Shown in pieces: positions 37,037-60,600 of a stretch of DNA of 64,000 nt. The notes under the pieces are model-generated. The model was not told where the DNA came from and made no database searches. It worked only from the letters and a program-made list of their open reading frames with translations. Within the stretch, counting starts at the first letter, position 1, and each line of letters starts with the position of its first letter. The stretch comes from Minisyncoccota bacterium (GTDB taxonomy: Bacteria > Patescibacteriota > Minisyncoccia > Phycocordibacterales > SBAW01): contig DASZRD010000005.1 in NCBI GenBank assembly GCA_035549255.1, positions 58 to 64,057 of the forward strand, read 5' to 3'. Both the position numbers and the translations under genes were made by a program.

Positions 37037-37292
37037 CTCCGCGGGTAGGACTCGAACCTACAACCAACTCCTTACACATATCCTCTTATTACTAAAAGGT
37101 GTGGACTATATCATCTTCCCAAAGGAAGTTTCGGTATCTAGTCTCTACGGCGCCCTCGCACCATGCGAGGTTCCCACGGTGTTGCCCTCTTTAAAAGTAG
37201 GGGTTCACCGTTATCCCGAAATTATTCAATCCGCCTTGCGGCGAAAGGCTGCCTGTCGACAGGGAGCTGCTCTACCATTGAGCTACCGCGGA
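37037..37292 (-). tRNA. tRNA-Asn (anticodon GUU) interrupted by a group I intron in the anticodon loop
   Basis: Exon 1 (37292..37259): acceptor TCCGCGG, D-arm GCTC-AATGGTA-GAGC, anticodon stem GCTCC, loop CUGU. Exon 2 (37074..37037): UAA, GGAGU, variable loop, T-arm GTAGG-TTCGAGT-CCTAC, acceptor CCGCGGA, discriminator G. The spliced loop CUGUUAA matches tRNA-Asn; U1-A72 and G73 also fit Asn. Confidence 0.75.
37075..37258 (-). mobile_element. group I self-splicing intron (184 nt, Azoarcus-like subgroup IC3) within tRNA-Asn
   Basis: Conserved core: P7 strands GUAGAGACUAGAU (R, identical over 12 nt to the Azoarcus pre-tRNA-Ile intron) and AAGAUGAUAUAGUCC (S); P3/P4-like AAUUUCGGGAUAACGG; P2 hairpin CGCC-GCAA-GGCG. 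The 5' exon ends in U, which pairs with a G of the internal guide GCAG; the intron ends in G. Confidence 0.75.
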
Positions 37293-37366: not shown

Positions 37367-37708
37367 ATGGAAAAGAAGTGCAAGATCCATGGCGTCACCA
37401 AGCACTTCCCTCGCCAGGATGGATCTTGGCGTTGCGGCAAATGCGCCTCGGCTTGGGTTATAAAAAACCGCCAAAATAAGAAAGCCCGGCTTGTAGCATT
37501 GTTTGGCGGCAGATGCATAGCCTGCGGATATAAAAAATACGCTGGCGCTCTAGACTTTCATCATATTGATCCAAATAAGAAATCTTTTGCATTGAGCGTA
37601 AAGGGTCTTTCGTACTCGTGGGAGAGTTTGGTAGCAGAGGCAAAGAAATGCGTTTTGGTTTGCAAGAATTGTCATACCGAAATTGAGGCAGGAATAATTA
37701 AGATATAG
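37367..37708 (+). CDS. HNH endonuclease (free-standing, candidate intron-associated homing endonuclease)
   Basis: HNH/His-Me finger: CGKC, CIACG zinc knuckles, LDFHHIDP, CKNCH. AT-rich codons; leaderless start at the predicted TSS. Confidence 0.8.
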   Translation: MEKKCKIHGVTKHFPRQDGSWRCGKCASAWVIKNRQNKKARLVALFGGRCIACGYKKYAGALDFHHIDPNKKSFALSVKGLSYSWESLVAEAKKCVLVCKNCHTEIEAGIIKI

Positions 37709-38642: not shown

Positions 38643-38682
38643 CAAGCAAAGAAAAACCCCGGCACCTTGGAAGGTGCCGGGG
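38643..38682 (-). terminator. intrinsic terminator after the repeat-protein gene (CCCCGGCACC hairpin plus TTTTTCTTTGCTTG on the minus strand)
   Basis: 10-bp perfect stem with 6-nt loop. Confidence 0.6.
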
Positions 38683-38718: not shown

Positions 38719-39240
38719 CTAGGGACTGACGACGACGTTGACCTTGGCGCTGTCGAGCGCGGCGATGTTGGCCACGTCCGCCGTGGCGCCGTAGCCGGAC
38801 AGAGCAACCGCGAGGCCTGCCTGGGCGACATGATCAGCCTCCGCCGAGGTGTTGATCCACGCGCCGTTGTCGACGTTGTTGACCTGCGTATCGGCGACGC
38901 CGCCCAGATTGTCCACCGTAGCAGTCGCCGTGCCGTAGCCCGGATAGTTGAAGTCCGAGATCGCGACGGCAGCACCAAGCTGGATGGCGTGGTTGACCTC
39001 AGCCGACACGTTGGTGTTGCCCGTCCAGTCGCCGTCGACCGACGCCAGCGAGGCAACGTTCGTGCCGGTGGCCGAGGCATTGTTGGCAGCGTCGGCGCCG
39101 GCGAGAGCCAGCTGGCCGATGTTGTCCGCATGCGTGTGCGCGTCCACCGTGATGCCCGAAGCCATAGCGGCCGGGGCGGCGAAGAGCGCGAGCGCAGCGG
39201 CCGCAGCGGAAGCGAGCAGAATGGTCCTGAGATTCCTCAA
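38719..39240 (-). CDS. secreted repeat protein, candidate curlin-like substrate of the adjacent CsgG lipoprotein
   Basis: Signal peptide (AMA/SG); three imperfect ~45-aa repeats (SAEVNHAIQLGAAVAISDF / SAEADHVAQAGLAVALSGY). Asn/Gly/Ala/Val-rich with no Cys; last gene of the CsgG operon. Confidence 0.6.
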   Translation of the reverse strand: MRNLRTILLASAAAAALALFAAPAAMASGITVDAHTHADNIGQLALAGADAANNASATGTNVASLASVDGDWTGNTNVSAEVNHAIQLGAAVAISDFNYPGYGTATATVDNLGGVADTQVNNVDNGAWINTSAEADHVAQAGLAVALSGYGATADVANIAALDSAKVNVVVSP

Positions 39241-39347
39241 GGAAGTTCTCCTGTGTTTGAAGGATCAGAATACCCTGGAAGCGGATGCCTCCAGGGCACT
39301 AACAACGTAACACGTCTACTTGTTTTGCGCAAGTAGCCCGCACTACC

Positions 39348-40256
39348 TCAGGTCGCCGAGGCGACTTGAGTCGTTTGGGGCGCCGGAGCGCCTTCCATCT
39401 GGAGCAGGGTCCGGCATTCCGCAACAGCGGAGCGCCGGTCCGAGATCTTTCTGGCAGCCGACAAGCTGTCGATGAAGTTGCCGAGCAAGTCCACGACCTC
39501 GTAATCGACGAGGAAACGCAGCGTACTCTGCATCGGCTCGCGGTGACCGTTATCCACCTCGAACGAGGCGTACGTAAGGCCATTGCCGGAACCGACGAAC
39601 GTACCGACGCCGAACTTGTCTTCAACCGCCGCGAATTGCTTCGCGGCGCTGCTGGTGGCGACCGTAAGACCGCCATCCGTGCTGCCGTAAGGAAGCGTGA
39701 CGAGACGGGTATCCATGCTGCCGAGCGCCGTATAAGCGCGCGAGCCGGGACCGATGCCAAATACCTGGAACGTGCCCATAGAGCCGGGCAAGAAATCCAG
39801 GGAGCTGACGCTGCCCATAAGCATGTAATTGGGCATCGCGATGGCGCCCTTGATCCCCTTCGCCCCAACCCAGTCGATGTCGGCACGGTACTCGGGCGAG
39901 AGCTCGATCAGCTGGACGCCCACTTGCGCGAGGGCCGAGTTGAACATGTTGCTCGCGCCGTTGCCGACAAAGGCACCCGTGCCATCCTCGGTTGCAGTAT
40001 TGACCTTGCCCGTTTGGTCGGCGATGAGGCCGACGCCGATCTTGAGACTGTGCACTTCCGGAATCTTGGAGATGCACGCCATGGCGGCGTCGTATGGCCC
40101 GCGGACTGTGACGGTGGCGGAGCTCTGCCCCACCAGGGTTGCAGTAGACGATGCGTCCTTGAGGAACGCCGCGCCGCTGTCGCCCTGGGCAGTGGTGCAA
40201 CCGGCAAGTGCGATAGCGCCGGCGATGCCTGCGATGATGCCTGCAATTTTGATCAT
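39348..40256 (-). CDS. csgG: CsgG-family curli production assembly/transport lipoprotein
   Basis: Lipobox IALAGC; CsgG-like blocks (IGVGLIADQTGKV, FQVFGIGPGS, DTRLVTLPYG) similar to E. coli CsgG. Confidence 0.8.
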   Translation of the reverse strand: MIKIAGIIAGIAGAIALAGCTTAQGDSGAAFLKDASSTATLVGQSSATVTVRGPYDAAMACISKIPEVHSLKIGVGLIADQTGKVNTATEDGTGAFVGNGASNMFNSALAQVGVQLIELSPEYRADIDWVGAKGIKGAIAMPNYMLMGSVSSLDFLPGSMGTFQVFGIGPGSRAYTALGSMDTRLVTLPYGSTDGGLTVATSSAAKQFAAVEDKFGVGTFVGSGNGLTYASFEVDNGHREPMQSTLRFLVDYEVVDLLGNFIDSLSAARKISDRRSAVAECRTLLQMEGAPAPQTTQVASAT

Positions 40257-40292
40257 TCCAGTCTCCTGTATGCCGCCCGGGCGGGCGCGTGG

Positions 40293-40703
40293 TTACGGGA
40301 AGGTGATCGAACCCACGTTGCCGGCGGAGATCGGGACCGAAGTCGCGTTCTGCTGGCTCTGAGCGTGGATGTCGTTGTCGACATGAATGTTCTGCGCGTT
40401 ATCGATGGTCGTCACGGAGACGCCATTGAGGTTGGTCGACTCGCCGCCGTACTGGCAGGCGGTCGCCACCGTGCAGTTCGTGTAGGTATTAGTCGTCGAC
40501 GTCGAGTTGTAGGTCGTGCTTCCCCCGCCGTTCTGGTAGAGCCAGAGCGCCTGTGCCTCATTGAAGCGGTTGGCGTCCTGGTCGGCCGAGGGAAACCCCT
40601 CGGAATTGTTCCAGTCGGAGGCAGCGCTGCCGGCGTAGGCCGGAGTCATGCCGCACAGCGCCATGAGCGCGAGCGCGGCACAACCGCATACAATCTTCTT
40701 CAT
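40293..40703 (-). CDS. hypothetical secreted protein, first gene of the CsgG operon (possible CsgF/CsgE-like accessory)
   Basis: Signal peptide (AYA/GS), Asn/Ser/Thr-rich, two Cys; weak resemblance to the CsgF N-terminus (FNEAQALWLYQNGGG vs GAFLLNSAQAQN). Confidence 0.55.
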   Translation of the reverse strand: MKKIVCGCAALALMALCGMTPAYAGSAASDWNNSEGFPSADQDANRFNEAQALWLYQNGGGSTTYNSTSTTNTYTNCTVATACQYGGESTNLNGVSVTTIDNAQNIHVDNDIHAQSQQNATSVPISAGNVGSITFP

Positions 40704-40956
40704 GCAGTCCTCTCTTGTGTTGATGTCTTCGTATCAATGATCGTGCCTCGCAAAAACGCGCCTCATACAGAGAGGCGTTTCGAGAGACTGCGTTCTATCC
40801 TATCATAATCATTGACATTTGTCAAATATCAGGACGGGCAAAAATACCTTGCGGTATATGGGATTTTTATCAGTTTATCGTGTCTGATCCCTATATAGGG
40901 ACTGACCTCCATCTTTACCACCCTAAGCAAGGGTAGAAAGCAAGTATAGTAGAGAC

Positions 40957-41124
40957 ATGAACCCCAAAACGCTGATGGTGATTTTTGCAACTATTGGCTC
41001 GATCGTAGGCGGCTATATACCGACCCTCTGGGGCGCGTCGCTCTTCTCCCTCTCCTCTTGGTTCTTCGGTGCGATAGGCACGGCACTTGGCGTCTGGCTG
41101 GTGTTCAAGCTCCAAGGATATTGA
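40957..41124 (+). CDS. candidate small membrane protein (55 aa, two TM helices)
   Basis: MNPKTLMVIFATIGSIVGGYIPTLWGASLFSLSSWFFGAIGTALGVWLVFKLQGY; GC3-biased; below the ORF-track size cutoff. Confidence 0.4.
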   Translation: MNPKTLMVIFATIGSIVGGYIPTLWGASLFSLSSWFFGAIGTALGVWLVFKLQGY

Positions 41125-42067: not shown

Positions 42068-42484
42068 TCACGCTGGCATGCACTTGATGCACCGGCAGCC
42101 TTTCGGCTTGATATAGGCCTCGAAGTATTCGGTGTCGTAATCGTAACTAAGCTCCTCCCCCGCGATTATCTTGCGCTTGGCCATGACCCAGACGCGGCCT
42201 TTATGGATGTCGATCTCGCAGTTGGGCCGGCAGGAATGGTTAATGTAGCGGGCAGTATTGGAGCGCGCGGCGCCGTCGATGGTCTTCTTCTTGGTCACCT
42301 CAAATAAATAGAGGCTGTTGCTGTCCTCCTCTTGCTGTTTGGTGAGGACTTTGCCAGTGTATTCGATAACGCAGGCGCCCTTTTTGATATCCTCAAGCGT
42401 AAAGAGCCCCAAGCCGGCGCGCGAGCGGCCGACCCGGAGCTTTACGCCTACCGGAATAAATTTGCTTCTGCTTTTTCTTTTCAC
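42068..42484 (-). CDS. SET-domain protein-lysine methyltransferase
   Basis: SET signatures NHSCRPNCEI and GEELSYDY, plus post-SET Cys cluster CRCIKC. Confidence 0.85.
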   Translation of the reverse strand: MKRKSRSKFIPVGVKLRVGRSRAGLGLFTLEDIKKGACVIEYTGKVLTKQQEEDSNSLYLFEVTKKKTIDGAARSNTARYINHSCRPNCEIDIHKGRVWVMAKRKIIAGEELSYDYDTEYFEAYIKPKGCRCIKCMPA

Positions 42485-42512
42485 GACCCTGAAGGACCTA
42501 CGTCTGGCTAAA

Positions 42513-42767
42513 TTACTTGAGATGCGCCGAAACGAGCTTGGTCATCTCGAACATGGTGACTTCGTTCTTGCCGAAGATGGGCTTCAGCTTGTCGTCCGCC
42601 ATGATGTTGCGCTTGTTCTTGGGGTTCTGGAGGTCGTGCTTCTTGATGTACTCCCAGAGCTTCTTGACGACTTCCGAGCGCGGCATCGGGCCCTTGCCCA
42701 CGACTGCCTCGAGATCCGAAGAAAGGTCCATCGGCTTGAGCAGGGCGGGATTCGCTTTTCTAACCAT
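42513..42767 (-). CDS. SWIB/MDM2-domain protein
   Basis: 84 aa; VVKKLWEYIKKHDLQNPKNKRNIMADDKLKPIFG fits the SWIB domain consensus. Confidence 0.8.
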   Translation of the reverse strand: MVRKANPALLKPMDLSSDLEAVVGKGPMPRSEVVKKLWEYIKKHDLQNPKNKRNIMADDKLKPIFGKNEVTMFEMTKLVSAHLK

Positions 42768-42862
42768 GAGTGATTAATTAATGTATAAAAGACCGGTACT
42801 GGGAGTATACCGAAAACCCTTTTCTCTGGGAATACCCCTTATACACCCCCGCTGCGCCTTCA

Positions 42863-42891
42863 TTGACACTACAGATTCCTCCCCACACAAT
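42863..42891 (+). promoter_or_regulatory. sigma70 promoter TTGACA-17-CACAAT; predicted leaderless mRNA for the hybrid kinase
   Basis: TTGACA 42863..42868, -10 at 42886..42891, ATG at 42898. Confidence 0.45.
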
Positions 42892-42897
42892 GTCCTC

Positions 42898-44982
42898 ATG
42901 CATAGGTTGCGGGAGGCAATCTCCTTACCTCGCACCCCGAGGGAACAATGGGGCGCCGTAGGCCTCCTTATAGCCTATTTTCTTGCGATCGGAATAGGAA
43001 GCTTTCTGCATCAGGGATTAGCGGTCATAAGCTTCGCTTCCGGCGTGGGCTTAGGCGCGCTCGTGCTCGAAGGGAGCTCTCTTTGGCCCGGCATCTACCT
43101 GGGGGCGCTTGCATGGTACGTCACCAGTGGCGCCGCACCGGTATATATAGCGGTATTGCCGGTCGCGCATACCGCTCAGGCGCTGATAGGTGCCTACCTG
43201 CTGCGCGCTCTGCGCTTTGACCCACTGCTGCGGCGCCTGCGCGACATGTTCTCTCTTATGGGCGTCGCCATTTTTGCCTCGGCGATCGTGCCGATACTGG
43301 GCACCGCGGGCGTCTGGGCGACGCGCCTCTTTATCGACCCTGCCTTTCCTCTTGCCGTAACATTCGGGTCGTGGTGGACCGGCATCATGACCAGCCTCCT
43401 TATCGTGGCGCCGCTTATCATCCGCTGGGGTGCGGAGCCCGTATTCAAGCGCTCCGCGCGGCAGATTTTGGAGCTCGTGTTCGTCTTTGCGGTGCTTATC
43501 GCCATCGACTGGATGCTGCTGTGGGTGGGGATATCCTCCGTCAACGGCGTCTCGCTCGTATACATTATGCTGCTGCCGTTCTTCTGGCTGGCCATCCGTA
43601 TCGGCCCGCGCTTCACGATCCTCGCGCTGTTCCTCACCACCTGCCTCGCCATGGCGGGAACCATGTACGGGCCGCACGCCGTCGCCGACCCGGTAGCGCT
43701 CGGCAACCGGCTCTTTCAGATCGAGATATTCATCAACATCATCGCGATCATCTTCTACATCATCGCGGCGCTGCAGGAAGAGCGCGTCGAGGCGACCAAA
43801 TCGCTCACCTCCTATATCGACAAATTAGAAGAGGCGCTCAACCGCCTGAGCCTCCAGGACCGCGCCAAGAGCGACTTCATTGCCATACTCGCGCATGAAT
43901 TGAGGAATCCTCTTGCGCCCGTCGTGAGCGCGCTAGAGTTCCTGCGCCTCGGCGCGGCGCGGTCGAGCGAGGAAACGGAGACGCTCGAGCTTATGGACGA
44001 CCGCCTCCGCACCGTGCAGCGCCTACTCGACGACCTGCTCGACGTCTCGCGCATCGAGCGCTCCAAGGTCGAGCTTCAGCGCGAGGCGGTTGACTTGCGC
44101 ACCATACTCGAGCGCTCGATCCGCTCGGTCGCCGCCAAGATCGAGGGCCGCCAGCAGCAGCTCGTCTTCGAAGTGCCGCAAGAGCCACTCGTCTTATTCG
44201 CCGATCCGGTGCGCATCGAGCAGGTCGTTTCCAACCTCCTTACCAATGCAAGCAAATTCACGCCCGAAAGCGGCAGGATCTCGGTTGTAGCGACCAGAGA
44301 GGGCGATGCCGCGGTGGTGAGAGTCAAAGATACCGGCATCGGCATTGACCCAGAGCTTATCCCCCGCATTTTCGAGCCGTTCCTCCAGCTTGAGACGGGC
44401 GAGCGCAAGAGCGATGGGCTCGGCATCGGGCTGTCGCTCACCAAGCGGCTTGTCGAGATGCATGCCGGCCAGATAGAGGTCAGGAGCGGCGGCATAGACC
44501 AGGGCAGCGAGTTTACGCTGCGCTTCCCTATCGCGAACGACACGCTCGTGGTGCCGGTGGCGCAGCCGGTCGCGAGCGCCCCCGCCGCCGCCACACCAAC
44601 TCGGGTGCTTGTCGTCGACGACAACGCGGCGGCGGGACGTGGGATCGGCAAGCTCCTCGCGATCAAGGGCTTTGACGTCGAGTATGCGCAGAGCGGCGCG
44701 CAGACGCGCGAGGTTCTTACGCTCAGGAAGCCGCGCGTCATCGTGCTCGATATCGGGCTTCCGGATACCGACGGCTATACGCTCGCGCGCATCTTGCGCG
44801 TGCAAGACAATTTCACGGGCGTACTGATCGCGCTCACAGGCTACGGCCAGCAGGAGGACAAGCAGCGCGCGCTTGAGGCGGGCTTCGACGCCCACCTCAC
44901 CAAGCCGGTCGGGATCGACGAGCTCGTGGTGGCGATCAACCAGGCATTGGCGCGCATAGAGCGTGCTACTATGGCAGAATGA
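42898..44982 (+). CDS. hybrid sensor histidine kinase/response regulator with an N-terminal polytopic membrane sensor domain
   Basis: About 8 TM helices, HisKA (FIAILAHELRNPL), HATPase_c (GLGIGLSL), C-terminal receiver (VLVVDDNAAAG ... LDIGLPDTDG). Start trimmed to ATG 42898 from the track's 42781. Confidence 0.85.
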   Translation: MHRLREAISLPRTPREQWGAVGLLIAYFLAIGIGSFLHQGLAVISFASGVGLGALVLEGSSLWPGIYLGALAWYVTSGAAPVYIAVLPVAHTAQALIGAYLLRALRFDPLLRRLRDMFSLMGVAIFASAIVPILGTAGVWATRLFIDPAFPLAVTFGSWWTGIMTSLLIVAPLIIRWGAEPVFKRSARQILELVFVFAVLIAIDWMLLWVGISSVNGVSLVYIMLLPFFWLAIRIGPRFTILALFLTTCLAMAGTMYGPHAVADPVALGNRLFQIEIFINIIAIIFYIIAALQEERVEATKSLTSYIDKLEEALNRLSLQDRAKSDFIAILAHELRNPLAPVVSALEFLRLGAARSSEETETLELMDDRLRTVQRLLDDLLDVSRIERSKVELQREAVDLRTILERSIRSVAAKIEGRQQQLVFEVPQEPLVLFADPVRIEQVVSNLLTNASKFTPESGRISVVATREGDAAVVRVKDTGIGIDPELIPRIFEPFLQLETGERKSDGLGIGLSLTKRLVEMHAGQIEVRSGGIDQGSEFTLRFPIANDTLVVPVAQPVASAPAAATPTRVLVVDDNAAAGRGIGKLLAIKGFDVEYAQSGAQTREVLTLRKPRVIVLDIGLPDTDGYTLARILRVQDNFTGVLIALTGYGQQEDKQRALEAGFDAHLTKPVGIDELVVAINQALARIERATMAE

Positions 44983-51236: not shown

Positions 51237-53198
51237 TTAGATCGATCCGATCGCCTGGTTTAGCGTCACGACCTTGATGCCGCTTTGCTTAATGTAATTG
51301 ACCAATGACTGCAAGAAGCTCGGCGTAATCGCGTATTCATCTCCGCCGCTTTGGAGCACGTCGTGGATCTCGAGGATAAGGAGCCGCTTGTCGGCAACCG
51401 CCTGGTCGATCTCGGCTTCGAGCGAAGCAAGCGATGTCGATGAGTCAACACGAATGTCATCGAGGTTATAGCGCGGGGCCCCGGGCTCGTTGAGGCCGTA
51501 GTAGCTGCCGCGCGCGGCGCTGTAGCCGGCAGCAGCCACCATCGCGTCGGTCGAGGGGCTGCGGTCGCCATAGGGATACACGAAGGTAGTCGGCGTGATG
51601 CCCTGTTTTACAAGGTCGCTATACGAGCCGGCGATCTCCTTCTGCGCCTGCGCGGACGTCAGCGTGGTGAGGTACGGATGCGTCTGCGTGTGGCCGCCGA
51701 TCTCGAAGCCCTGCGACGCGAGGTTCTTGATCTGCGCCCAGGTCATATACCCGCTGTCGCCGCTCCCCGGCTCGGAGGTAATGATGTAGAAGCTCGCTCT
51801 CATGCCCGCGGCATTGAGTATCGGCAGCGCGTTCTGATACTGCGACAAGTCGCCGTCATCAAAGGTAAGTGCCACCATGCCGCTCGGGAGCGGGTTCTGG
51901 GGGTTGGCGGTGAGCGAAGCATTATCGATCGTAAGCGTGCCGACTGCCGCGATCGTGTGAAGCACCGTGAGCGATACCGCGCCCGTTGGCACGGTGACCT
52001 GCGCGGTGAGCGTCTGCCACGTGCCATTGGTTGCCGGAGCATCAGCGACCCAATCGTACTGATACGTGCCATCACTCATGAGGTACTCGACCGTAACATT
52101 GTCTTTGAGCGTCGAATTGTAATCGTCGGTGAACGTATAGATCGTGTGGCTCGATACCGGCACATGGTCGAAGTCCCACTTGGCGTCGCCCGAGGAGTAT
52201 TTGGTGATAGCCACCTGCGCCGCCTTGCCGCCCCCCTTGCCGGCGACCGGATAGGTAAACTTTACGTTCATCGTGCCCCAGTAATCGGCATTCCATCCGG
52301 TCGGGTTATTGGCCGTGCCCGCTTCAAGGTTGCCGTTAGCGATGAGGTTGGGACCGTTCGGCTGAGTCGGCGGAGTCGGAGGCGCCGGCTGCACGACGGT
52401 AACCGTGACGCTTGAGGTCGCAACACCCGCAGGATTCGTTGCAGTAAGCGTGTACGTCGTGGTCTGGGTTGGCGTTACCTGTTTGCTCGCGCCCGTCACG
52501 ATACCGACATTCTGGTCGATGCTGGTCGAAGACGCGTTGCTGACATTCCACGAGAGCGTGACCTGCTGGCCCGCAACGATAGTGCTGCTTGATGTGACAA
52601 ACGAGTTGATGAGGGGCTTCTGCTGCACCGGCGGCGGAGGCGGCGTAGAAGTGCTGGCCGCCTCGGTAAGCGAGTACTGATCGACTTCGACGTAACCAAT
52701 ACTCTTGAGCTCATGCGCGAAGCGCACCTTGGTGTAACCGCTCGGGATCGTGACCGTCGCGCTGAATTGCTGCCAGGCGCCCGTGCCCGAGACCGTACCG
52801 AGCGTCTGGGTAACGGAGCTGCCGTTATTCTTCGTGAAGATCGCAATCACATTCACCGACACGTTCGAGAGCGAGTAGCCCGAGAAGAGGTACGACTTAC
52901 CCGCTGCGACGCTCGCGGCGGGAGACTGCCAGTACGCGTCGCCGCTGTTCTTGTACTTGGTGATCTGCGCCTTGACGGCGTTCCCGCTGAATCCCTTGAC
53001 CGGATAATTGAATGAGACGCTGATATTAGAGCCGCTATGCTCGGTATTCCATCCCGAGGTGCCGTTGTCGAGAGAAGGGTTGGCGATAAGATTGGGTCCG
53101 CCCGCTATCGCGGTCCCGCCTATAAAAAGCACCGCTGCCGCGCATGCGGCGATAAGGATTCCTGCGGAACGTCCTGGATTTTTCATACTGCTATGCAT
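51237..53198 (-). CDS. secreted multidomain polysaccharide deacetylase (CBM-like and Ig-like domains plus C-terminal NodB domain)
   Basis: Signal anchor, two CBM4/9-like modules (NPSLDNGTSGWN, NGNLEAGTANNPTGWN), Ig-like domains with PPPP linkers, NodB motifs (ALTFDDGD, EIGGHTQTHP). Start trimmed to ATG 53198; the track ORF runs into the upstream gene. Confidence 0.8.
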   Translation of the reverse strand: MHSSMKNPGRSAGILIAACAAAVLFIGGTAIAGGPNLIANPSLDNGTSGWNTEHSGSNISVSFNYPVKGFSGNAVKAQITKYKNSGDAYWQSPAASVAAGKSYLFSGYSLSNVSVNVIAIFTKNNGSSVTQTLGTVSGTGAWQQFSATVTIPSGYTKVRFAHELKSIGYVEVDQYSLTEAASTSTPPPPPVQQKPLINSFVTSSSTIVAGQQVTLSWNVSNASSTSIDQNVGIVTGASKQVTPTQTTTYTLTATNPAGVATSSVTVTVVQPAPPTPPTQPNGPNLIANGNLEAGTANNPTGWNADYWGTMNVKFTYPVAGKGGGKAAQVAITKYSSGDAKWDFDHVPVSSHTIYTFTDDYNSTLKDNVTVEYLMSDGTYQYDWVADAPATNGTWQTLTAQVTVPTGAVSLTVLHTIAAVGTLTIDNASLTANPQNPLPSGMVALTFDDGDLSQYQNALPILNAAGMRASFYIITSEPGSGDSGYMTWAQIKNLASQGFEIGGHTQTHPYLTTLTSAQAQKEIAGSYSDLVKQGITPTTFVYPYGDRSPSTDAMVAAAGYSAARGSYYGLNEPGAPRYNLDDIRVDSSTSLASLEAEIDQAVADKRLLILEIHDVLQSGGDEYAITPSFLQSLVNYIKQSGIKVVTLNQAIGSI

Positions 53199-53232
53199 AC
53201 GTATTAATAATGATTTGATAACGCTGACAGGA

Positions 53233-54522
53233 CTAATCTCTCCCAGTACCCGGCTCAACCGTGTAGGACTTGAGCGTATGCGGTGAAGCGTACGGGTTCG
53301 GGTCCCACGTCTCGAAGCCGACCGTACCCGAATTCTGCAGGCTCGGGAGATCGGCGGCGAGCACCACTTGCCCGCCGATGAGGCACGACAACCGGCTGCC
53401 TTCGATATCGGCGCCCATATCGACACCCTCCCACGGGGAATCCTGGCGTACGGGAAGACTCGGCGATTGAGATATGAATTGCGAGACGCCGTTTGATACC
53501 TGATAAATCTGCACAGTCTGGCCGTAGCGCGAGAACGCGCACGAGGCGAAGTTGCCATCGTCGCGCATGCGCACCAGACGCGAGAAGACGCTTGTGAGGC
53601 CCCAGTCGACCGTCGTATCGACTTTATAATCGACCCAGTCCTTGCCGCCGCGGAACATGGTCATCGAGCCGGTGGTGCTCGCGGCGGCGGAGGGGCCGGT
53701 CTCGATAGAGCCGCTCTCCCCCGGCCCGAAGAAGCCGAAATACGTAAACCACTTGTCGAGAGAATCCGACGACGGAGAGAAGGTATATGGAAGCGTCGCG
53801 GGCGTGGCGGTCGCGAAGGGGTCGAAGGGCTGCGGCCCGGTCGCGACCGGCGGGTACCAGGGGGAATGAGGCGCATCCGAAGAGACCAGGCGTACTTCGT
53901 CGATATAGGCAGACCCCGGATTCTCCGCGCTCACGCTGAACCCAGTGAGCTCTTGGGGGGTCGTGGAACCGACGGAGAAATTGGCGAGCGGGACGGTAAT
54001 CTGCTGCCACTCCCCGGGCGCCAGCGCGCCCGACGCGGCATACCACGAGAGGGACTGGCGGCCGATCGAATTGCCCTGCGCGTCGTAGATATCGAGATAA
54101 AGGTCCCCCACTGCCGCATCGGGGCGGACATACAGCGAGATCGCGCTATACGGCGCCGCATCGGCCGCTGGCCCCTGCATACCGACGCTCCCGCCGGCCG
54201 CGTCGAAGGCCGCCTTGATCGACGCCGGCCCGGCGGCATACTCATCAGTCGCGCGCCAATTGGCGCTCGCGTGCCAAGTCCAGCTATCGTAGCGCAGCGG
54301 CAGCGCATCCTGGTAAAAATAGCCCGAATTAAGCGATACAGCGCCTGAGAGAAGCGATGAGGCGAAAGGATCTCGGCCGCTCTGGTACGAAACGCCCAGC
54401 GCCGCGAGCAAGTCCCCCGGCTGCGTGCGCACATAAAAGAGCGAGAGCGCCGAGGCGATGCCCGCGAGCGCCACGGCGAAGAATGCGCACCAGACTATTC
54501 TCCAAAAGCGGTCGACAATCAT
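53233..54522 (-). CDS. hypothetical membrane-anchored extracytoplasmic protein, between the synthase and the secreted deacetylase
   Basis: N-terminal TM then a 400-aa beta-rich domain; 4-nt overlap with the upstream gene, so likely co-transcribed. Confidence 0.65.
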   Translation of the reverse strand: MIVDRFWRIVWCAFFAVALAGIASALSLFYVRTQPGDLLAALGVSYQSGRDPFASSLLSGAVSLNSGYFYQDALPLRYDSWTWHASANWRATDEYAAGPASIKAAFDAAGGSVGMQGPAADAAPYSAISLYVRPDAAVGDLYLDIYDAQGNSIGRQSLSWYAASGALAPGEWQQITVPLANFSVGSTTPQELTGFSVSAENPGSAYIDEVRLVSSDAPHSPWYPPVATGPQPFDPFATATPATLPYTFSPSSDSLDKWFTYFGFFGPGESGSIETGPSAAASTTGSMTMFRGGKDWVDYKVDTTVDWGLTSVFSRLVRMRDDGNFASCAFSRYGQTVQIYQVSNGVSQFISQSPSLPVRQDSPWEGVDMGADIEGSRLSCLIGGQVVLAADLPSLQNSGTVGFETWDPNPYASPHTLKSYTVEPGTGRD

Positions 54523-57083
54523 AATAAGGTAGGCCGGGCCTCGGTCGGCGCAATCGAAGCGGAGGTCTCGGCGGTACGCGCCTCATCCGGAATAAGCGAG
54601 GCGTGCAGAGCGCCCGGAAGCTGCGGGGAGACCTCCGCGATCGTAAGCGGGGACGGGACCGGCACGAGGATGTCGCTTTGATAGAACCGCTTCGTCTCCC
54701 CCGCCTTGCGGAACTTATTCCAGCCCGCGCCGCTGCCCTCGATCGCGCGGATGACGCCGCGCATGACACTAAAGTAGAGAAGCTGCCGGTAGACCACCCG
54801 CTGCAGGGGCACGCCGATCATGAGGCGGCCCGCGCCGGGCTCCTTCCAGACGCCCCAGGCGGCATAGGCCATGTCGAAGGCGGTAAATAAGAGGAACGGC
54901 ACGAGAAGCGTGCGCATCTGGCCGAAAAGGAGGCCGAATACGAACGCCGCGTCAGTGAAGGGGTACGCGAGCGGCAGCAGGATATTGTAGATAAACACGT
55001 TGGGAAGCACGATAAGGGTCATGGGCGAGAACGGCCGCTCGAGCGCGACGCGCTTGTGCTTCCAGACGCATTGCATGGTGCCATAGACCCAGCGGAAGCG
55101 CTGCTTGAGGAAATTCTTTACCGTATGCGGCGTCTCGGTGTAGGCGATGGCCTGCGGCTCATAGACGACGCGCTTTCCCGAGCGCAGCACGGTGAGCGTC
55201 ATGTCCTGGTCCTCGACCAGCGTATCGGTCGAAAAGCCACCGAATTGCATGAGATACGACTTGCGCCACGCGCCCGCGGGCCCGGGCACGATGCCGACCG
55301 CGCCGATAGTCGAGAACGCGCGCTTGTCGATGTTCTGGCCGATCGCGTATTCGAGGGTCTGGAAAATGTCGAGCATGCGGCGGCTGCCCGTGGTGCGGAC
55401 CTTCCCCGCGACCGCGCCCACCCGCGGGTCGCTGAAGTGCTTTACGAAGTGCGCGAGCGCCCGGCGCTCAAGCACAGCGTCGGCGTCGAGAACCGCGATG
55501 ATATCGTACTTCGCGTGCTTGATGCCGATATTGAGCGCGCGGGCCTTGCCGCCGTTCTCCAGGCTCATGAGGCAGATATCGTCGTGCGGATATGCCTCGA
55601 TGACGTTGCGGACTTCCTGCGCGGTTTTGTCATATGAGCCATCGTCGAGCACGATAATCTCGCGCTTGGGGTACGAGCTGCGAATGACGCTCTCGACGGT
55701 CGCGGCGATATTCTCCTCCTCGTTATAGGCGGGGATAAGCACGGATACGCCTGCGACCTCGCGCACCTCGGGAATGATCTCCTTATAGAGGCCGCGCATG
55801 CGGCCGTACATGATGAGCGAGATGAGCGACAGCGAGCGGACGCCGACAAGCGCGAGCGTGAAGATCGCGAGCCCCATAAGGCCGCGGTAGATGATCGGGA
55901 AGAAATATATATAGAGGCTGCGCATGGCTTCGCCCAGCCCCAAGAGCGCGATGACCGCCCATGCGCTCCAGCCCGCGGCCGCCCCAGGGGCGGCCGCGGG
56001 CGCCGCTGCGAGCGCGGACTCGAGCGACATCGAGTGGATAAGGTTGCGGGTCGCCTGGTCGGCCTTGCCGGCGCGGGACGGGTCGGGGTTGCCCGAATCG
56101 ACAAGCTTGTTGGCGGTCTGAAAGTTGAGCAGCGCCGCGCGCGTCGCTGCGTCGAATACGCCGGTAAGCGCGTACGGGTCGAGGTACTTCTGCATATAAA
56201 GGAACCATTGGAGCTGCGATACCGCGCCGCCGGTTGTGGCATCAGTCGCGCCGAGCGCAAGCGTCGAAGGAAGCGAGATCGTCGTAGGCGGCGTCAGGAG
56301 CGAGGAGAGCGGCACGACGCTGTAGCCGTGGTCTTTGAGATAGCCGAGAATCGCAGGCAGGGCCTTGGCGGTCGCCACGTCCTCATGAAGGAGGATGATG
56401 TGGCCGTTGGGTTTCTCCGCAAGCGCGCGGTCAAGGTCAGCGACCATTTGCGGCGTCGTAGTCGCATACCACTTGGTCGGATCGATGTCGGCACCCACCG
56501 GCAGATACCCGAGCTCGAGGGACCACAGGAGGTCTTTGGGCGGCGGCACATAAGGGTTGAGGGTCGGGTCGGACCCGACGCCGGAGAGATACGGCGGACG
56601 GTAGAAGAGCGGCTGCTGCCCCGTGATCTGCGAGATAAGATACCCGGTCGAGTTGAGCTCGAGCGCAAGGCGCTTGTAGGAAGACTGCGCGTCCCGGGCA
56701 TGCGTGAAGGAAAGGTTCCCGACCGTAAAGCCGTCATCGCTCGCCTCCTTGACCAAGTCGGGCCGCGTGAGCACATCCTTTCCTATATAGAAGAACGTTG
56801 CCGGCACACCCTCCTTCGATAGTTCGTTGAAGAAGAGCTGCGACGCATCGGGCGTCGGACCGTCGTCTATCGTGAGCGCGACCTTGTCGGCATTCGCCGC
56901 GCTGAAGTAGTAGTGATAGCGCTCGGCGATATCCGCATACGGAAGCGAGGCGCGCCCGGCGGTAGTGCTCGCGAGGCCGAACAAAAAAATAAGAACGAAC
57001 GAAAGGAGAAAGAATATGAAAAAGACCGCAGCGGCCCTGAAATATAGTTTGCGTCGTTTAGAGGTATCGAAAAATACAGGCAT
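54519..57083 (-). CDS. fused polysaccharide deacetylase (NodB) / peptidoglycan-binding domain / processive family-2 glycosyltransferase (PgaC/IcaA-like synthase)
   Basis: N-terminal TM; NodB (ALTIDDGPT, HIILLHED); PG_binding_1-like (AVSQLQWFLYMQKYL...GVFDAATRAALLNFQ); TM block; GT2 (VLIPAYNEEENI, DADAVLE, QRFRWVYG = QxxRW); C-terminal TMs. Confidence 0.85.
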   Translation of the reverse strand: MPVFFDTSKRRKLYFRAAAVFFIFFLLSFVLIFLFGLASTTAGRASLPYADIAERYHYYFSAANADKVALTIDDGPTPDASQLFFNELSKEGVPATFFYIGKDVLTRPDLVKEASDDGFTVGNLSFTHARDAQSSYKRLALELNSTGYLISQITGQQPLFYRPPYLSGVGSDPTLNPYVPPPKDLLWSLELGYLPVGADIDPTKWYATTTPQMVADLDRALAEKPNGHIILLHEDVATAKALPAILGYLKDHGYSVVPLSSLLTPPTTISLPSTLALGATDATTGGAVSQLQWFLYMQKYLDPYALTGVFDAATRAALLNFQTANKLVDSGNPDPSRAGKADQATRNLIHSMSLESALAAAPAAAPGAAAGWSAWAVIALLGLGEAMRSLYIYFFPIIYRGLMGLAIFTLALVGVRSLSLISLIMYGRMRGLYKEIIPEVREVAGVSVLIPAYNEEENIAATVESVIRSSYPKREIIVLDDGSYDKTAQEVRNVIEAYPHDDICLMSLENGGKARALNIGIKHAKYDIIAVLDADAVLERRALAHFVKHFSDPRVGAVAGKVRTTGSRRMLDIFQTLEYAIGQNIDKRAFSTIGAVGIVPGPAGAWRKSYLMQFGGFSTDTLVEDQDMTLTVLRSGKRVVYEPQAIAYTETPHTVKNFLKQRFRWVYGTMQCVWKHKRVALERPFSPMTLIVLPNVFIYNILLPLAYPFTDAAFVFGLLFGQMRTLLVPFLLFTAFDMAYAAWGVWKEPGAGRLMIGVPLQRVVYRQLLYFSVMRGVIRAIEGSGAGWNKFRKAGETKRFYQSDILVPVPSPLTIAEVSPQLPGALHASLIPDEARTAETSASIAPTEARPTLL

Positions 57084-57245
57084 ACAGCCGAGACAGCATT
57101 GTTGCTGCGGCTGGTTCCCCCGGTTATGCGGTTATTGCGCACGCATACTGGATGATGCGCGCACACCAAAAGTATAGCGCATATCGCAGAGGTGTATAGC
57201 GTAAACCGGTGTGGAAATCAGAATCGTATATATTGGAGTACAGAT

Positions 57246-57325
57246 ATAAAAAAGAACAAGGTCGAGGCGGGCCCAAAACCCTGGGAAACCAGCCATAAGC
57301 TGGAGCTTTTGGGCCCACCTCGACC
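57246..57325 (-). promoter_or_regulatory. intrinsic-terminator-like hairpin inside the 5' leader of the synthase gene (candidate attenuator/riboswitch expression platform)
   Basis: 19-bp inverted repeat GGTCGAGGCGGGCCCAAAA / TTTTGGGCCCACCTCGACC (one mismatch) at 57260..57278 and 57307..57325, followed on the minus strand by TTGTTCTTTTTTAT. Lies about 165 nt upstream of the synthase ATG and is preceded by a second hairpin plus U-run (57359..57390). Confidence 0.45.
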
Positions 57326-57623
57326 TCGTATCTTTTGGAAGAACGCCTTCCCGTAAAAACAAATCGAAGCTCTTCTTCGGAGTAAAGAGCTTCGCCGCGC
57401 ATACTACTCGAGGCAGATTTCTTGTATAGATTGTCAGCGCAAAATTTTCGTCGCCGAATGTCGCGTGAGAGTTGCGAAAATAAAAATTTGTATCGCGCTA
57501 TCGCACGTCTCTTGTAATTTGAAATGCGCGTGCTATTTTGCCTCCTACCAAAGCAGCTCTGGGAAACTGCCGTGGGACGTGTTTTTCTCTTGTCCTTTAT
57601 TCATTAGGTATTAACCAGAGCTT

Positions 57624-60600
57624 ATGTCTCTCATTAAAGAGGGCGCGCTCGCGCGCCTGGGACGTGCTGTGTTCTCTCTTACTAACGTTCGTGCAAGCGG
57701 ATTGGTCGTGTCCGCGCTTTTTGCATTGGCAGTTGTCGTAGCGCCGACCGCAGCAATGGCTGCAACATTCACCAGCATTACTGCATCCGATGCTTCAGGT
57801 ACTTATGGAGGAACAGTAAACCTTTCCGCAACTCTACAATATTATTCTGGTGGTTTTCACGCACTAACCGGAAAAACAGTCACGTTCAAACTCAATGGAA
57901 CGACAGTTGGTGCTACTACTACTGACAGTAGCGGTAAAGCAACTCTAAATAACGTCAGTTTGAGTGGCATTAACGCAAATACCTATAATTCTGGAGTCTC
58001 AGCAAGCTTTGCGGGTGATTCTACCTATTCATCAGATAGTGATACTTCAAAACTCACGGTCTCGAAGGCTAACCCGACCCTCTCGGTAACAAACTCCCCG
58101 CAGGCTTACACTGGCTCGCCTATTGCGGCGGCAGTGAGTGGCTCGGTTGCTGGCACAGTAAGCAATGTAAAGTACAACAACTCGTCAACAGTTCCCACAA
58201 ACGCAGGAACGTACCCGATTACCGCAAGCTTTGCGCCGACCGACACCACCAACTACAACTCTCTCTCAAGCGCCTCAGCTGGTAGCTTTGTCATCACCGG
58301 CGCTCCTACCAAGGCAAATACACTTACTGTTATTACCTCCGACACGCCGGATCCTTCGAATACGAATGCGGCTTACACGGTCAACGTGAGCGTCGGGCGC
58401 CTCTCTGGTACCAATAGCCCGAGCGGCACCGTAACGGTATCGGATGGCTCGGCGACTTGCGCCGCTACCCTCTCCGGCTCTTCGGCAACCACGACCGGCT
58501 CCTGCCAGCTCACCTCAACTACGTCTGGCTCCAAGACGCTTACGGCGACGTACAGCGGCGATACCAACTTCAATACGAGCTCGGGCACCGCGTCGCACAC
58601 GGTTAATAACGTCGCAGGTCCTGACTGCAGCAACTTCGTCGACCTCGCACACAACCTTATTAACAATCCCTGCCTTGAAACCGGCTCTGCATGGAATGGC
58701 ACGACCGGCGGCCCCGATAACTGGTCCTTCTATTCTGCAGGCGTTACGGGCGGCGCGACATATCCGGCCACGTCGTACCATTCGGGTACGGGTGCAGCCG
58801 AGGTTCATATAAGCGCGATCAATTCCCCTGCCGATCCGAATAATCCTCCGCAGGCGCAATGGGGATTCAATCCAGTCAACAACATTACTCCAGGCGCCAA
58901 TTACCAGTTCAGCTTCTGGTACAACTCCAACGTCGATAGCGAAGTAGACGCCGAGTACGACACGGCGAGCGGCCCGATCTACACGCAAGTGCGCTCCAAC
59001 CTCCCATCGACCAATGGCGCATGGGTGCAGTTCACGACGAACATCATCCCGCCGGCCGGAACGACAGCGATGTCTATAACGCCGCTTATCAGCAAGGTCG
59101 GCAATCTCACGGTCGACGACTTCTCGCTTGTGCAGGAAGCCGATCCCAATGCCTTTGCGACGGGCATGGTATCGCTCAACTTCGATGACGGCCTTGCAAG
59201 CTTCTGGAATTACGCGACCAGCACGCTCAACGCGGCGGGCATCAAGGCGACCGAATACATCATTACCGGCGCATCCGGCAGCGATGTGACAAATCCCAAT
59301 CCGAGCAGCGGCTACCTCTCGCGCACGCAGATTCAGGCACTCGCTGCAGCGGGTTACGACATTGGCGACCACACCACCGACCATGCCGACCTCACCAACC
59401 TGAGCTCGGGCCAGACGCTTACCTCCGAAATAAATAACTCGGTAGCGGCGCTCAACAATATCGGCATCTCGTCCGTCAGCACCATCGCTTATCCGTACGG
59501 AACATACAATCAGGCGGTTGAAAGCCAAGTGCTGCATGTTCCGCTTCTTGCGGGCCGCAGCGTCGATGACGGCTTCAATGACAAGAAGACTGATCCATAT
59601 GCTCTGCGCATCAAGGAAGTCTTCGATACAACATCAGTATCACAAGTAGAAAGCTGGATTGATGAGGCTAATGCGAATAATGAGTGGCTGATCCTGCTCT
59701 TCCACACCGTGGACAAAGACAGTGCAAACGGCCTGGATTGCACCAGCGGTACGCCTAACACCAACAATCCTCAGGAGTGCGTCACCACTGCCAATCTCCA
59801 GGCGATTGTAAGCCACCTCAACAGCACCCACACGCACACCGTTACCATGTCGCAAGGCATCGGGATCATGAACGGCACCTCCGTCATCGATCAGACTGCG
59901 CCGACCGTCACTGTTCCTTCGAACATAAGCGTTCCCGCAACGTCGCAAGCCGGCGCAACCGTAACCTTCTCCGTCACAGCAACCGATAATATCGACCTCA
60001 ACCCTTCGATCCTCTGCATGCCGGCATCGGGCTCGGTATTCGCGTTCGGGACCACGACAGTCGGCTGCTCGGCCACAGACGCGAGCGGCAATAAGTCTGC
60101 TACTTCGACCTTCGACGTAGGCGTCTATAAGCCGACCCTTACTATCACCGCCGACAATCAAACAACAACCTTCGGCTATACCACTGAGCCCACATACACT
60201 GTTACGATTACCGGCTTCCAGGGTACCGATGATGCAACTGTTCTTACAACGCAGCCGACCTGCTCGGTCGCGGTTGATCACAGTGCGGTCGGCACCTACC
60301 CGATCACTTGTTCCGGGGCGGCCGATACCGACGGCATCTACGTATTCAATTACGTAAATGGCACGCTCACGGTCGCGCCGGTAGATGGCACGGTGGTGCT
60401 GAACAATCTCACCCAGACCTATGACGGCACGCCTAAGGCGGTCGCAACCTCGACTGGCGATGTCGTACTCTCGGTTACCGTTACATACGCGGGCACGGGC
60501 GGCACAACCTACGCGCTCTCGACGGTGCCTCCGACCGATGCGGGTACCTATGACGTGGTCGCAACCATCGACGCGGGCCAGAGCTACAGCGGCTCGGCCG

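What the first reader, a model, noticed from the sequence alone, without database searches (positions are those of the whole stretch)
38719..41124. CsgG-lipoprotein operon with a repeat-containing secreted protein: possible curli-like functional amyloid secretion system
Three co-directional genes encode a secreted Asn/Ser-rich protein, a CsgG-family lipoprotein (lipobox IALAGC, CsgG-like blocks), and a 173-aa secreted Cys-free protein made of three imperfect ~45-aa repeats (SAEVNHAIQLGAAVAISDF / SAEADHVAQAGLAVALSGY), rich in N/G/A/V like amyloid subunits. The operon ends in a strong terminator. Upstream lies a perfect palindrome TTGACATTTGTCAA (40812..40825) that may be an operator, plus a divergent 55-aa two-TM ORF. 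A CsgG channel with no recognisable CsgA/B or CsgD suggests a divergent, undescribed cargo.
Basis: partly seen in the sequence, partly recalled or inferred. Interest (0 to 1): 0.65.

Follow-up and report, generated by a model that had tools for sequence, protein, structure and literature searches.

The report
Holdfast-anchor-like CsgG/HfaB module in CPR bacteria
Three adjacent genes for a curli-channel-like (CsgG/HfaB-fold) lipoprotein and two unannotated secreted partner proteins form a conserved module in candidate-phyla-radiation (Paceibacterota) genomes, which is odd because this channel normally sits in an outer membrane that these bacteria are thought to lack.

Summary
The three minus-strand genes are real: A (40293..40703, 136 aa), B (39348..40256, 302 aa) and C (38719..39240, 173 aa). 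They keep the same order in every related locus with enough flank, about 14 sequence-distinct loci. B is a CsgG/HfaB-superfamily lipoprotein. Pfam CsgG scores just under threshold (19.6 vs 20.8 bits). NCBIfam HfaB gives E 2.4e-13. An AlphaFold model (pLDDT 88) matches only E. coli CsgG, best in its membrane-inserted form. A is a probable remote relative of the small proteins encoded upstream of proteobacterial CsgG/HfaB genes, the hfaA position. C is a Cys-free tandem-repeat protein with no detectable relative outside this clade. It has no curlin repeats, and no CsgE/F or HfaD match was found. The closest known system is therefore the Caulobacter holdfast anchor hfaA-hfaB-hfaD, not curli proper. 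All labelled carriers are CPR MAGs (Paceibacterota, Kaiserbacteria), which are presumed monoderm. C has its own invariant promoter, so the unit is not a simple operon. Amyloid behaviour of C and the membrane location of B remain untested. I rate it a new variant of a known kind, of moderate to high interest.

The parts
40797..40825 (-). Promoter of gene A. The -35 box TTGACA is at 40825..40820, followed by a 17-nt spacer with TG and the -10 box TAGGAT at 40802..40797.
   Evidence: Consensus scan gives 10 of 12 matches. A TTGACA lies 89-129 nt upstream of gene A in 9 lineages, but the palindrome occurs only here.
40749..40777 (-). 5' leader hairpin CGCCTCTCTGTATGAGGCG followed by a U-run. It looks like a terminator, or it may be a 5' stabilising stem.
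   Evidence: repeat I10. A hairpin plus U-run sits at the same position in the leaders of L004, L006, L014, L019, L020 and L025. No Rfam family matches. Function is unknown.
40293..40703 (-). Gene A: a 136-aa Sec-exported, N/S/T-rich protein with an invariant NC-x5-CQxGG(T/S)xTN motif. It is a remote relative of HfaA-position proteins.
   Evidence: The family HMM finds an orthologue upstream of B in every locus. hhalign against the small proteins upstream of other CsgG/HfaB genes gives 88% probability and E 3e-6 with signal peptides removed. There is no Pfam or NCBIfam hit, and none to HfaA NF037934.
39348..40256 (-). Gene B: a 302-aa lipoprotein (LAG|C20) of the CsgG/HfaB superfamily, with two predicted long beta-hairpins (residues 144-187 and 198-239).
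   Evidence: Pfam CsgG scores 19.6 bits against a cut-off of 20.8. NCBIfam HfaB gives E 2.4e-13. hhalign to E. coli CsgG is collinear over 145 columns. The AlphaFold model has pLDDT 88.1. The best Foldseek hits are membrane-form CsgG 6l7c, 6l7a, 6si7 and 4uv3, with E 1e-15 to 3e-13.
39304..39332 (-). Internal promoter for gene C. The -35 box TTGCGC is at 39332..39327, the TG at 39312..39311 and the -10 box TACGTT at 39309..39304.
   Evidence: TTG, TG, TA and the final T are invariant at fixed spacing in an alignment of the B-C intergenic regions from 14 lineages.
39273..39296 (-). Leader hairpin of the C transcript, CCCTGGAGGCATCCGCTTCCAGGG.
   Evidence: Inverted repeat I9. Strong hairpins lie at the same place in the other lineages, often with GGA in the loop.
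38719..39240 (-). Gene C: a 173-aa (TTG start) Sec-exported, Cys-free A/V/G/N-rich protein of three ~45-aa repeats, each with an invariant Gln. It is the presumed major surface or polymer subunit.
   Evidence: It lies downstream of B in every locus. No family matches in Pfam, NCBIfam or PDB, and there is no match to CsgA or HfaD-like proteins.
38647..38682 (-). Intrinsic terminator ending the unit.
   Evidence: An 11-pair stem with 9 GC pairs, followed by TTTTTCTTTG.

Best explanation
This is a Paceibacterota (CPR) version of the CsgG/HfaB-type three-gene module. Its only studied relative of the same gene order is the Caulobacter holdfast anchor hfaA-hfaB-hfaD.

All three products are exported by Sec (shown: signal peptides and a lipobox). 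B is lipid-anchored and adopts the CsgG fold, including the two hairpins that build the barrel in CsgG (shown by prediction). By analogy it oligomerises into a channel or cage (inferred).

C is transcribed from its own conserved promoter. It is the abundant repeat subunit, which B passes or hands over so that it assembles into a beta-rich, possibly amyloid-like, surface polymer or anchor (inferred). A is the HfaA-position partner and acts as adaptor or nucleator at B (inferred).

The likely biological role is attachment of the cell to a surface or to a host cell (inferred).
For: - B is a member of the CsgG/HfaB superfamily by sequence and predicted fold.
- A-B-C order and strand are kept in every locus with flanks, across about 14 lineages, while the neighbouring genes differ.
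- The pattern small protein, then CsgG/HfaB gene, then secreted repeat protein recurs in proteobacterial and other relatives.
- In locus L028 the flanking genes weakly match NCBIfam HfaA (E 0.007) and HfaD (E 8e-8).
- The A-family profile matches those upstream proteins after signal peptides are removed (hhalign 88%, E 3e-6).
- In Caulobacter, HfaB is needed for surface localisation of HfaA and HfaD, and HfaA forms SDS-resistant multimers (PMC6707917; bioRxiv 10.1101/2022.07.20.500906).
- C has its own invariant extended -10 promoter, as expected for a major subunit.
- Conserved Cys pairs in A and B fit an extracytoplasmic location.
Against: - The window's B is below the Pfam CsgG cut-off and far below the HfaB equivalog cut-off (49.9 vs 300 bits).
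- A and C do not match the HfaA or HfaD models.
- C shows no profile similarity to HfaD-like proteins or to CsgA.
- No structure or aggregation test of C was possible.
- The hosts are presumed monoderm (PMC8871954), so after Sec export there may be no second membrane for a channel to cross.
- Some clade members (Kaiserbacteria P0160, P0016) lack the lipobox Cys.
- No holdfast polysaccharide genes are adjacent to the trio.
Confidence: 0.55

Rival explanations
1. B is a wall- or membrane-associated scaffold rather than a secretion channel. In a single-membrane cell the CsgG-fold lipoprotein stays in a pre-pore-like, non-inserted oligomer on the outer face of the cytoplasmic membrane. There it acts as a chaperone or nucleation platform for A and C, which could be wall or S-layer-associated structural proteins.
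For: - The hosts are presumed monoderm (PMC8871954).
- CsgG has a soluble pre-pore form, which the model also matches (4uv2, E 1e-10 to 1e-8).
- The window context is rich in PG_binding_1 surface proteins.
- The lipobox is dispensable in some clade members.
Against: - The model matches the membrane-inserted CsgG form better: rmsd 5-6 A against 10-11 A for the pre-pore form.
- Both hairpin segments, including the FGIG motif, are conserved across the clade.
Confidence: 0.2
2. It is a genuine curli (CsgA/B-CsgG) functional amyloid system that has merely diverged.
For: - B has the CsgG fold.
- C is a Q/N/G/A-rich repeat protein without Cys.
Against: - None of 25 A- and C-family members matches Curlin_rpt, CsgE or CsgF, even at E up to 10.
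- hhalign of C against CsgA and of A against CsgF finds nothing.
- B is much closer to HfaB-type proteins than to E. coli CsgG. BLASTP gives 4.9e-14 to a protein scoring above the HfaB cut-off (P0153) and 7.8e-22 to the Arenibaculum CsgG/HfaB-family protein, against 0.31 for CsgG.
Confidence: 0.04
3. The contigs are mis-binned or mislabelled and come from ordinary diderm bacteria, so nothing about the host is unusual.
For: - All host assignments are MAG labels.
- G+C near 59% is high for many CPR genomes.
- An HlyD-type protein is encoded in the window.
Against: - Independent MAGs from different studies carry the trio: four labelled Paceibacterota, one Kaiserbacteria from the Rifle site and one labelled Saccharibacteria. 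The contigs are long, 58-210 kb.
- The trio's G+C matches its flanks.
- Neighbouring genes are Gram-positive or CPR-like: RNase Y, PrgI/TraC-like, SpaA-type giant proteins and PG_binding_1 anchors.
Confidence: 0.06

Closest known systems
Caulobacter crescentus holdfast anchor HfaA-HfaB-HfaD
   Same: - The gene order is the same: a small secreted protein, a CsgG-like lipoprotein, then a secreted repeat or adhesin-like protein.
- B matches the NCBIfam HfaB model (E 2.4e-13 for the window protein, best 3e-15 in the clade).
- A is a probable remote relative of HfaA-position proteins.
- All three products carry export signals.
   Different: - B scores 49.9 bits against the 300-bit equivalog cut-off and is about 20-26 residues shorter after helix 2.
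- A and C do not match the HfaA or HfaD models.
- C is 173 aa, against a 374-position HfaD model.
- C has its own promoter.
- No hfs holdfast polysaccharide genes are adjacent.
- The host is a CPR bacterium, not a stalked alphaproteobacterium.
E. coli curli secretion-assembly system (CsgG with CsgE/CsgF and subunits CsgA/CsgB)
   Same: - The predicted fold of B equals CsgG, including the DxTG motif, the constriction-loop region and both barrel hairpins.
- The partner is a Cys-free, Q/N/G/A-rich imperfect-repeat protein.
- CsgG inserts without BAM (Dunstan 2015, as cited in PMC13067283), so such a protein could work in a BAM-less organism.
   Different: - There are no curlin repeats and no CsgE, CsgF, CsgC or CsgD.
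- BLASTP of B against CsgG is not significant (E 0.31).
- The repeat unit of C is about 45 aa, not 19-23 aa.
- The module is a single three-gene cluster rather than two divergent operons.
Uncharacterised 'CsgG/HfaB family protein' three-gene modules, for example in Arenibaculum sp. (L026) and in metagenomic loci L028, L030 and L031
   Same: - The layout is the same, with similar gene sizes (116-157 aa, 261-317 aa, 143-311 aa).
- The A-family HMM hits their upstream proteins at 21-31 bits.
- The downstream proteins are also secreted A/G/S/N/Q-rich tandem repeats.
   Different: - Their downstream repeat proteins share no detectable sequence similarity with C.
- None has been studied experimentally.

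Membership tests
CsgG (Pfam PF03783, curli secretion channel) | Score at or above the Pfam gathering threshold | tested here: not met
   The score is 19.6 bits against a cut-off of 20.8, with E 5.9e-4, covering model positions 10-203 of 210. The clade member P0003 carries a precomputed PF03783 hit. Of the wider relatives, 106 of 136 match.
CsgG (Pfam PF03783, curli secretion channel) | CsgG fold: an alpha/beta domain plus two long hairpins that form the barrel | tested here: met
   The AlphaFold model has pLDDT 88.1 and pTM 0.80. Foldseek ranks 1-25 are all CsgG. The best are the membrane-bound forms, with E 9e-16 to 3e-13 and TM 0.61-0.67 normalised to the target. This is a prediction, not an experiment.
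CsgG (Pfam PF03783, curli secretion channel) | N-terminal lipoprotein signal (lipobox Cys) | tested here: met
   The lipobox is LAG|C20. The Cys is invariant in 11 close relatives but absent in Kaiserbacteria P0160 and in P0016.
CsgG (Pfam PF03783, curli secretion channel) | Encoded with CsgE/CsgF and curlin-repeat subunits CsgA/CsgB | tested here: not met
   No Pfam hit for any A or C member at E up to 10. hhalign of C against CsgA and of A against CsgF finds nothing.
CsgG (Pfam PF03783, curli secretion channel) | Nonameric channel in an outer membrane | not testable with these tools
   This needs multimer modelling, biochemistry or cryo-ET. The described CPR cells are monoderm (PMC8871954).
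HfaB (NCBIfam NF037935, equivalog) | Score at or above the 300-bit equivalog cut-off | tested here: not met
   The score is 49.9 bits with E 2.4e-13. All four members tested hit the model, best E 3e-15. B is therefore homologous but not an equivalog.
HfaABD holdfast anchor system | Gene order: small secreted protein, HfaB-like gene, secreted repeat or adhesin protein | tested here: met
   The order is kept in all loci of the clade. It is shared with L026, L028, L030 and L031.
HfaABD holdfast anchor system | Upstream protein is HfaA (NF037934) | tested here: inconclusive
   No hit for A-family members at E up to 10. However, hhalign of the A family against HfaA-position proteins gives 88% probability and E 3e-6. 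One of those proteins, L028 up128, hits HfaA at E 0.007.
HfaABD holdfast anchor system | Downstream protein is HfaD (NF037936) | tested here: not met
   No hit for C-family members. hhalign against the HfaD-like L028 d209 scores 10.0, within the range of shuffled controls.
HfaABD holdfast anchor system | Anchors a GlcNAc-containing holdfast polysaccharide made by hfs genes | not tested
   Only a GT2-deacetylase fusion and two further deacetylase-domain proteins lie 11-18 kb away. Linkage in other genomes was not examined.
Functional amyloid subunit (generic) | Forms cross-beta, SDS-resistant, ThT or Congo-red-binding fibres | not testable with these tools
   Only composition and the repeat pattern are available.

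The most novel reading that the evidence does not exclude
B is a self-inserting (BAM-independent) beta-barrel that spans a membrane other than the cell's own cytoplasmic membrane. That membrane could be a so far unrecognised outer lipid layer in these Paceibacteria, or the envelope of the host cell they attach to. A and C would form the amyloid-like tether. Together they would make an episymbiont attachment or conduit organelle built from a curli/holdfast-type machine.
Probability: 0.1. Interest if true: 0.9.

Novelty: new variant of a known kind. Interest (0 to 1): 0.6.

Why it matters
CsgG/HfaB channels are known only as outer-membrane devices of diderm bacteria. They export amyloid subunits (curli) or adhesin anchors (holdfast).

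A conserved, diversified clade of such proteins in CPR bacteria is unexpected. These are ultra-small, probably episymbiotic cells, thought to have one membrane and no BAM machinery. Each copy is tied to two partner proteins that no database names.

This gives a concrete, testable handle on two open questions. One is what the CPR cell envelope really looks like. The other is how these cells stick to surfaces or hosts.

It also adds two unannotated protein families and shows that the hfaA-hfaB-hfaD layout extends well beyond Caulobacterales. If C proves amyloid-like, it would be a new type of bacterial functional-amyloid subunit.

Tried and rejected
- AlphaFold on B with only 4 sequences failed (pLDDT 31). 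It was repeated with 105 sequences.
- Profile searches of A, B and C against PDB sequences found nothing relevant.
- hhalign of C against CsgA and of A against CsgF found nothing.
- hhalign of C against the downstream repeat proteins of other CsgG/HfaB loci gave scores within shuffled controls. The exception was a borderline 20.3 for L031.
- The NCBIfam HfaA and HfaD models do not hit A or C.
- Rfam finds no family in the A leader.
The narrower alignment found only 8 loci.
- P0153, which scores above the HfaB cut-off, has no contig on record, so no Caulobacter-grade hfaA or hfaD sequences were obtained.
- The operator reading of the palindrome was rejected. Only the TTGACA arm is conserved in other lineages.
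- The 55-aa ORF and the 305-aa neighbour were rejected as parts of the system because they are not conserved with it.
- No amyloid predictor (TANGO, AmylPred) was available, and I did not improvise one.
Full report
**What is in the sequence.** On the minus strand lie three consecutive ORFs: A (40293..40703, 136 aa), B (39348..40256, 302 aa) and C (38719..39240, 173 aa, TTG start). Each is preceded by a Shine-Dalgarno sequence.

- A has a signal peptide, and its mature part is N/T/S-rich (13%, 12.5% and 11.6%).
- B has a lipobox, LAG|C20.
- C has a signal peptide and no Cys. It is 22% Ala, 12% Val, 10% Gly and 10% Asn.
- NCBI's annotation starts C at Met26 and loses the signal peptide (P0005). 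The aligned homologues support the TTG start.
- The unit ends in an 11-pair, GC-rich hairpin with a T-run at 38682..38657.

In C, repeats 2 and 3 are clearly related (z = 10.6 against 2000 shuffles). Repeats 1 and 3 are weakly related (z = 4.3). Repeats 1 and 2 are not related on their own. Relatives with 3-5 cleaner repeats confirm the repeat architecture, with one invariant Gln per repeat.

**Host.** B is identical to a protein of a MAG labelled Candidatus Paceibacterota (VG934_01430, 177-kb contig). Other carriers of the close clade carry these labels:

- Paceibacterota (VMV38, VFL98, SMAG_U14070)
- Candidatus Kaiserbacteria (OGG60552.1, Rifle aquifer)
- 'uncultured Candidatus Saccharibacteria'
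- plain 'bacterium'

The G+C of the trio (57-63%) matches its flanks. The window also encodes large PG_binding_1 surface proteins, polysaccharide deacetylases and PBPs. The Kaiserbacteria locus sits among RNase Y, PrgI/TraC-like and housekeeping genes. I found no paper linking CsgG to CPR or Patescibacteria. The few CPR cells described are monoderm (PMC8871954).

**B is a CsgG/HfaB-superfamily protein.**

- Pfam CsgG is just under threshold (19.6 vs 20.8 bits) but spans almost the whole model.
- NCBIfam HfaB gives E 2.4e-13, far below its 300-bit equivalog cut-off.
- hhalign to E. coli CsgG is collinear over 145 columns. It aligns the DxTG motif and the FGIG hairpin.
- An exhaustive profile search found 405 representatives at E <= 1e-3. 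About twenty score above 150 bits.
- Of the next 136 representatives, 129 match HfaB, 106 match Pfam CsgG and 42 match E. coli-type CsgG. One of them is annotated 'CsgG/HfaB family protein [Arenibaculum sp.]'.
- With a 105-sequence alignment, AlphaFold gave pLDDT 88.1 and pTM 0.80, with two long hairpins.
- Foldseek's top 25 PDB hits are all CsgG. The membrane-inserted forms come first (6l7c, 6l7a, 6si7 and 4uv3; E 9e-16 to 3e-13; rmsd 5-6 A). The pre-pore form follows (4uv2, rmsd 10-11 A).
- BLASTP places B nearer to HfaB-type proteins than to CsgG. It gives E 7.8e-22 to the Arenibaculum protein, 4.9e-14 to a protein above the HfaB cut-off (P0153) and 0.31 to CsgG.
- B is about 20-26 residues shorter than CsgG and HfaB-type proteins after helix 2.
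- Two Cys residues (C61, C281) are nearly invariant across 105 relatives.

**The trio is a conserved unit.** HMMs of the A, B and C families were run on all ORFs of every locus fetched. They find A immediately upstream and C immediately downstream of B, on the same strand, wherever the flank exists. That is about 14 sequence-distinct loci. The surrounding genes differ: SecDF and an amino-acid kinase in some loci, a PrmC-like methyltransferase in others. The family is rare. There are 7 clusters in the 5.8-billion-protein index, 4 loci among the GTDB species genomes and 8 loci in the JGI metagenomes.

**What A and C are.** Neither matches any Pfam or NCBIfam family, even at E up to 10, in any of 25 family members. 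That includes Curlin_rpt, CsgE, CsgF, HfaA and HfaD. Nor do they match PDB sequences.

Looking at other CsgG/HfaB genes shows the same layout:

| Locus | Upstream | CsgG/HfaB gene | Downstream |
|---|---|---|---|
| L026 (Arenibaculum) | 116 aa | 317 aa | 311 aa |
| L028 | 128 aa | 261 aa | 209 aa |
| L030 | 157 aa | 296 aa | 153 aa |
| L031 | 147 aa | 289 aa | 143 aa |
| P0025 contig | 130 aa | 296 aa | 154 aa |

In L028 the middle gene scores 268 bits on HfaB. Its neighbours weakly match HfaA (E 0.007) and HfaD (E 8e-8). This also shows that those models exist in the library.

The A-family HMM hits the upstream proteins at 30.0, 30.6, 20.9 and 7.8 bits. With signal peptides removed, hhalign gives 88% probability and E 3e-6 over 86 columns. 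A is therefore a probable distant member of the HfaA-position family.

C shows no similarity to the downstream proteins or to CsgA beyond shuffled controls. All of them, however, are short secreted A/G/S/N/Q-rich tandem-repeat proteins.

**Regulatory anatomy.** The TTGACA is the -35 box of a TTGACA-17-(TG)TAGGAT promoter. It recurs 89-129 nt upstream of gene A in nine lineages, without the palindrome. The predicted leader begins with a hairpin plus U-run in most lineages, with no Rfam match.

Between B and C, an alignment of 14 lineages has TTG, TG, TA and the final T invariant at promoter spacing. This is followed by a strong hairpin. C therefore has its own promoter, as one expects for a major structural subunit.

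**Interpretation.** The evidence supports a CsgG/HfaB-type export and assembly module whose best-studied analogue is the Caulobacter holdfast anchor. There, HfaB is required for surface localisation of HfaA and HfaD, and HfaA forms SDS-resistant multimers (PMC6707917; bioRxiv 10.1101/2022.07.20.500906). It is not a curli system in the strict sense.

- Shown: export signals, fold prediction, synteny, promoters.
- Inferred: oligomeric channel, polymerisation of C, adaptor role of A, adhesion function.

The main puzzle is the envelope. A barrel-forming CsgG relative in a presumed single-membrane cell either works as a non-inserted platform or spans an unrecognised outer layer or a foreign membrane. 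The last two are conceivable because CsgG inserts without BamA or TamA (Dunstan 2015, as cited in PMC13067283).

**Limits.**

- No aggregation predictor was available.
- Host assignments rest on MAG labels.
- No complete genome was screened for outer-membrane biogenesis genes.

Noticed in passing
window 39241..39347 (B-C intergenic), and the same region in L001, L004, L006, L012-L014, L017-L019, L021-L023 and L033: An invariant TTG-N17-TGnTAnnnT promoter is followed by a strong leader hairpin, often with GGA in the loop, and a GGA-containing Shine-Dalgarno sequence. Gene C is its own transcription unit. The layout recalls CsrA-controlled leaders, but no csrA was looked for.
   Followed up: partly
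window 40749..40777, and the leaders of gene A in L004, L006, L014, L019, L020 and L025: A terminator-like hairpin plus U-run sits 10-25 nt after the predicted transcription start. It is conserved in position and shape but not in sequence. It is not the terminator of a neighbouring gene, because the upstream gene is divergent. It could be an attenuator or a 5' stabiliser. No Rfam family matches.
   Followed up: partly
window 37082..37272 (-) and 37367..37708 (+): Rfam finds a group I intron at the gathering score (50.1 bits against 50). Next to it is a 113-aa ORF that looks like an HNH endonuclease by eye; no family scan was run on it. The stretch has low G+C (47%). ARAGORN finds no tRNA there, so the interrupted gene was not identified.
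   Followed up: no
window 51237..62411: This stretch holds a GT2 (PgaC/chitin-synthase-like) protein fused to a polysaccharide deacetylase and a PG-binding domain (54519..57083, -). It also holds a CBM-deacetylase protein (51237..53558, -) and a 1595-aa surface protein with a deacetylase domain, Ig-like domains and PG_binding_1 (57624..62411, +). Together they look like a deacetylated GlcNAc-type exopolysaccharide set, reminiscent of holdfast chemistry, but 11-18 kb from the trio.
   Followed up: no
window 39348..40256 (protein B), residues 61, 281 and 298-302: Two Cys residues are nearly invariant across 105 CsgG/HfaB relatives, which suggests a disulfide. The close subclade ends in an invariant VASA(T/S) C-terminus of unknown role. 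Protein A has an invariant C-x5-C.
   Followed up: no
L033 6001..6816 (Kaiserbacteria B, P0160), and P0016: These clade members have an ordinary signal peptide and no lipobox Cys. Lipid anchoring of B is therefore not universal in the clade.
   Followed up: no
window 42068..42767 (-): By eye these look like a SET-domain protein (42068..42484) and a SWIB/MDM2-domain protein (42513..42767). They lie next to a MASE1 hybrid histidine kinase (42781..44982), which Pfam confirms. No Pfam scan was run on the two small ORFs.
   Followed up: no
L028 (Logan SRR24236062, 30% G+C): The HfaB-like gene (268 bits) lies in a very AT-rich contig among unannotated small genes and an N6/N4 DNA methyltransferase. 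Its downstream 209-aa protein has curlin-style QxGNxxxxV...GVGDxLNVST repeats and matches HfaD at E 8e-8.
   Followed up: partly
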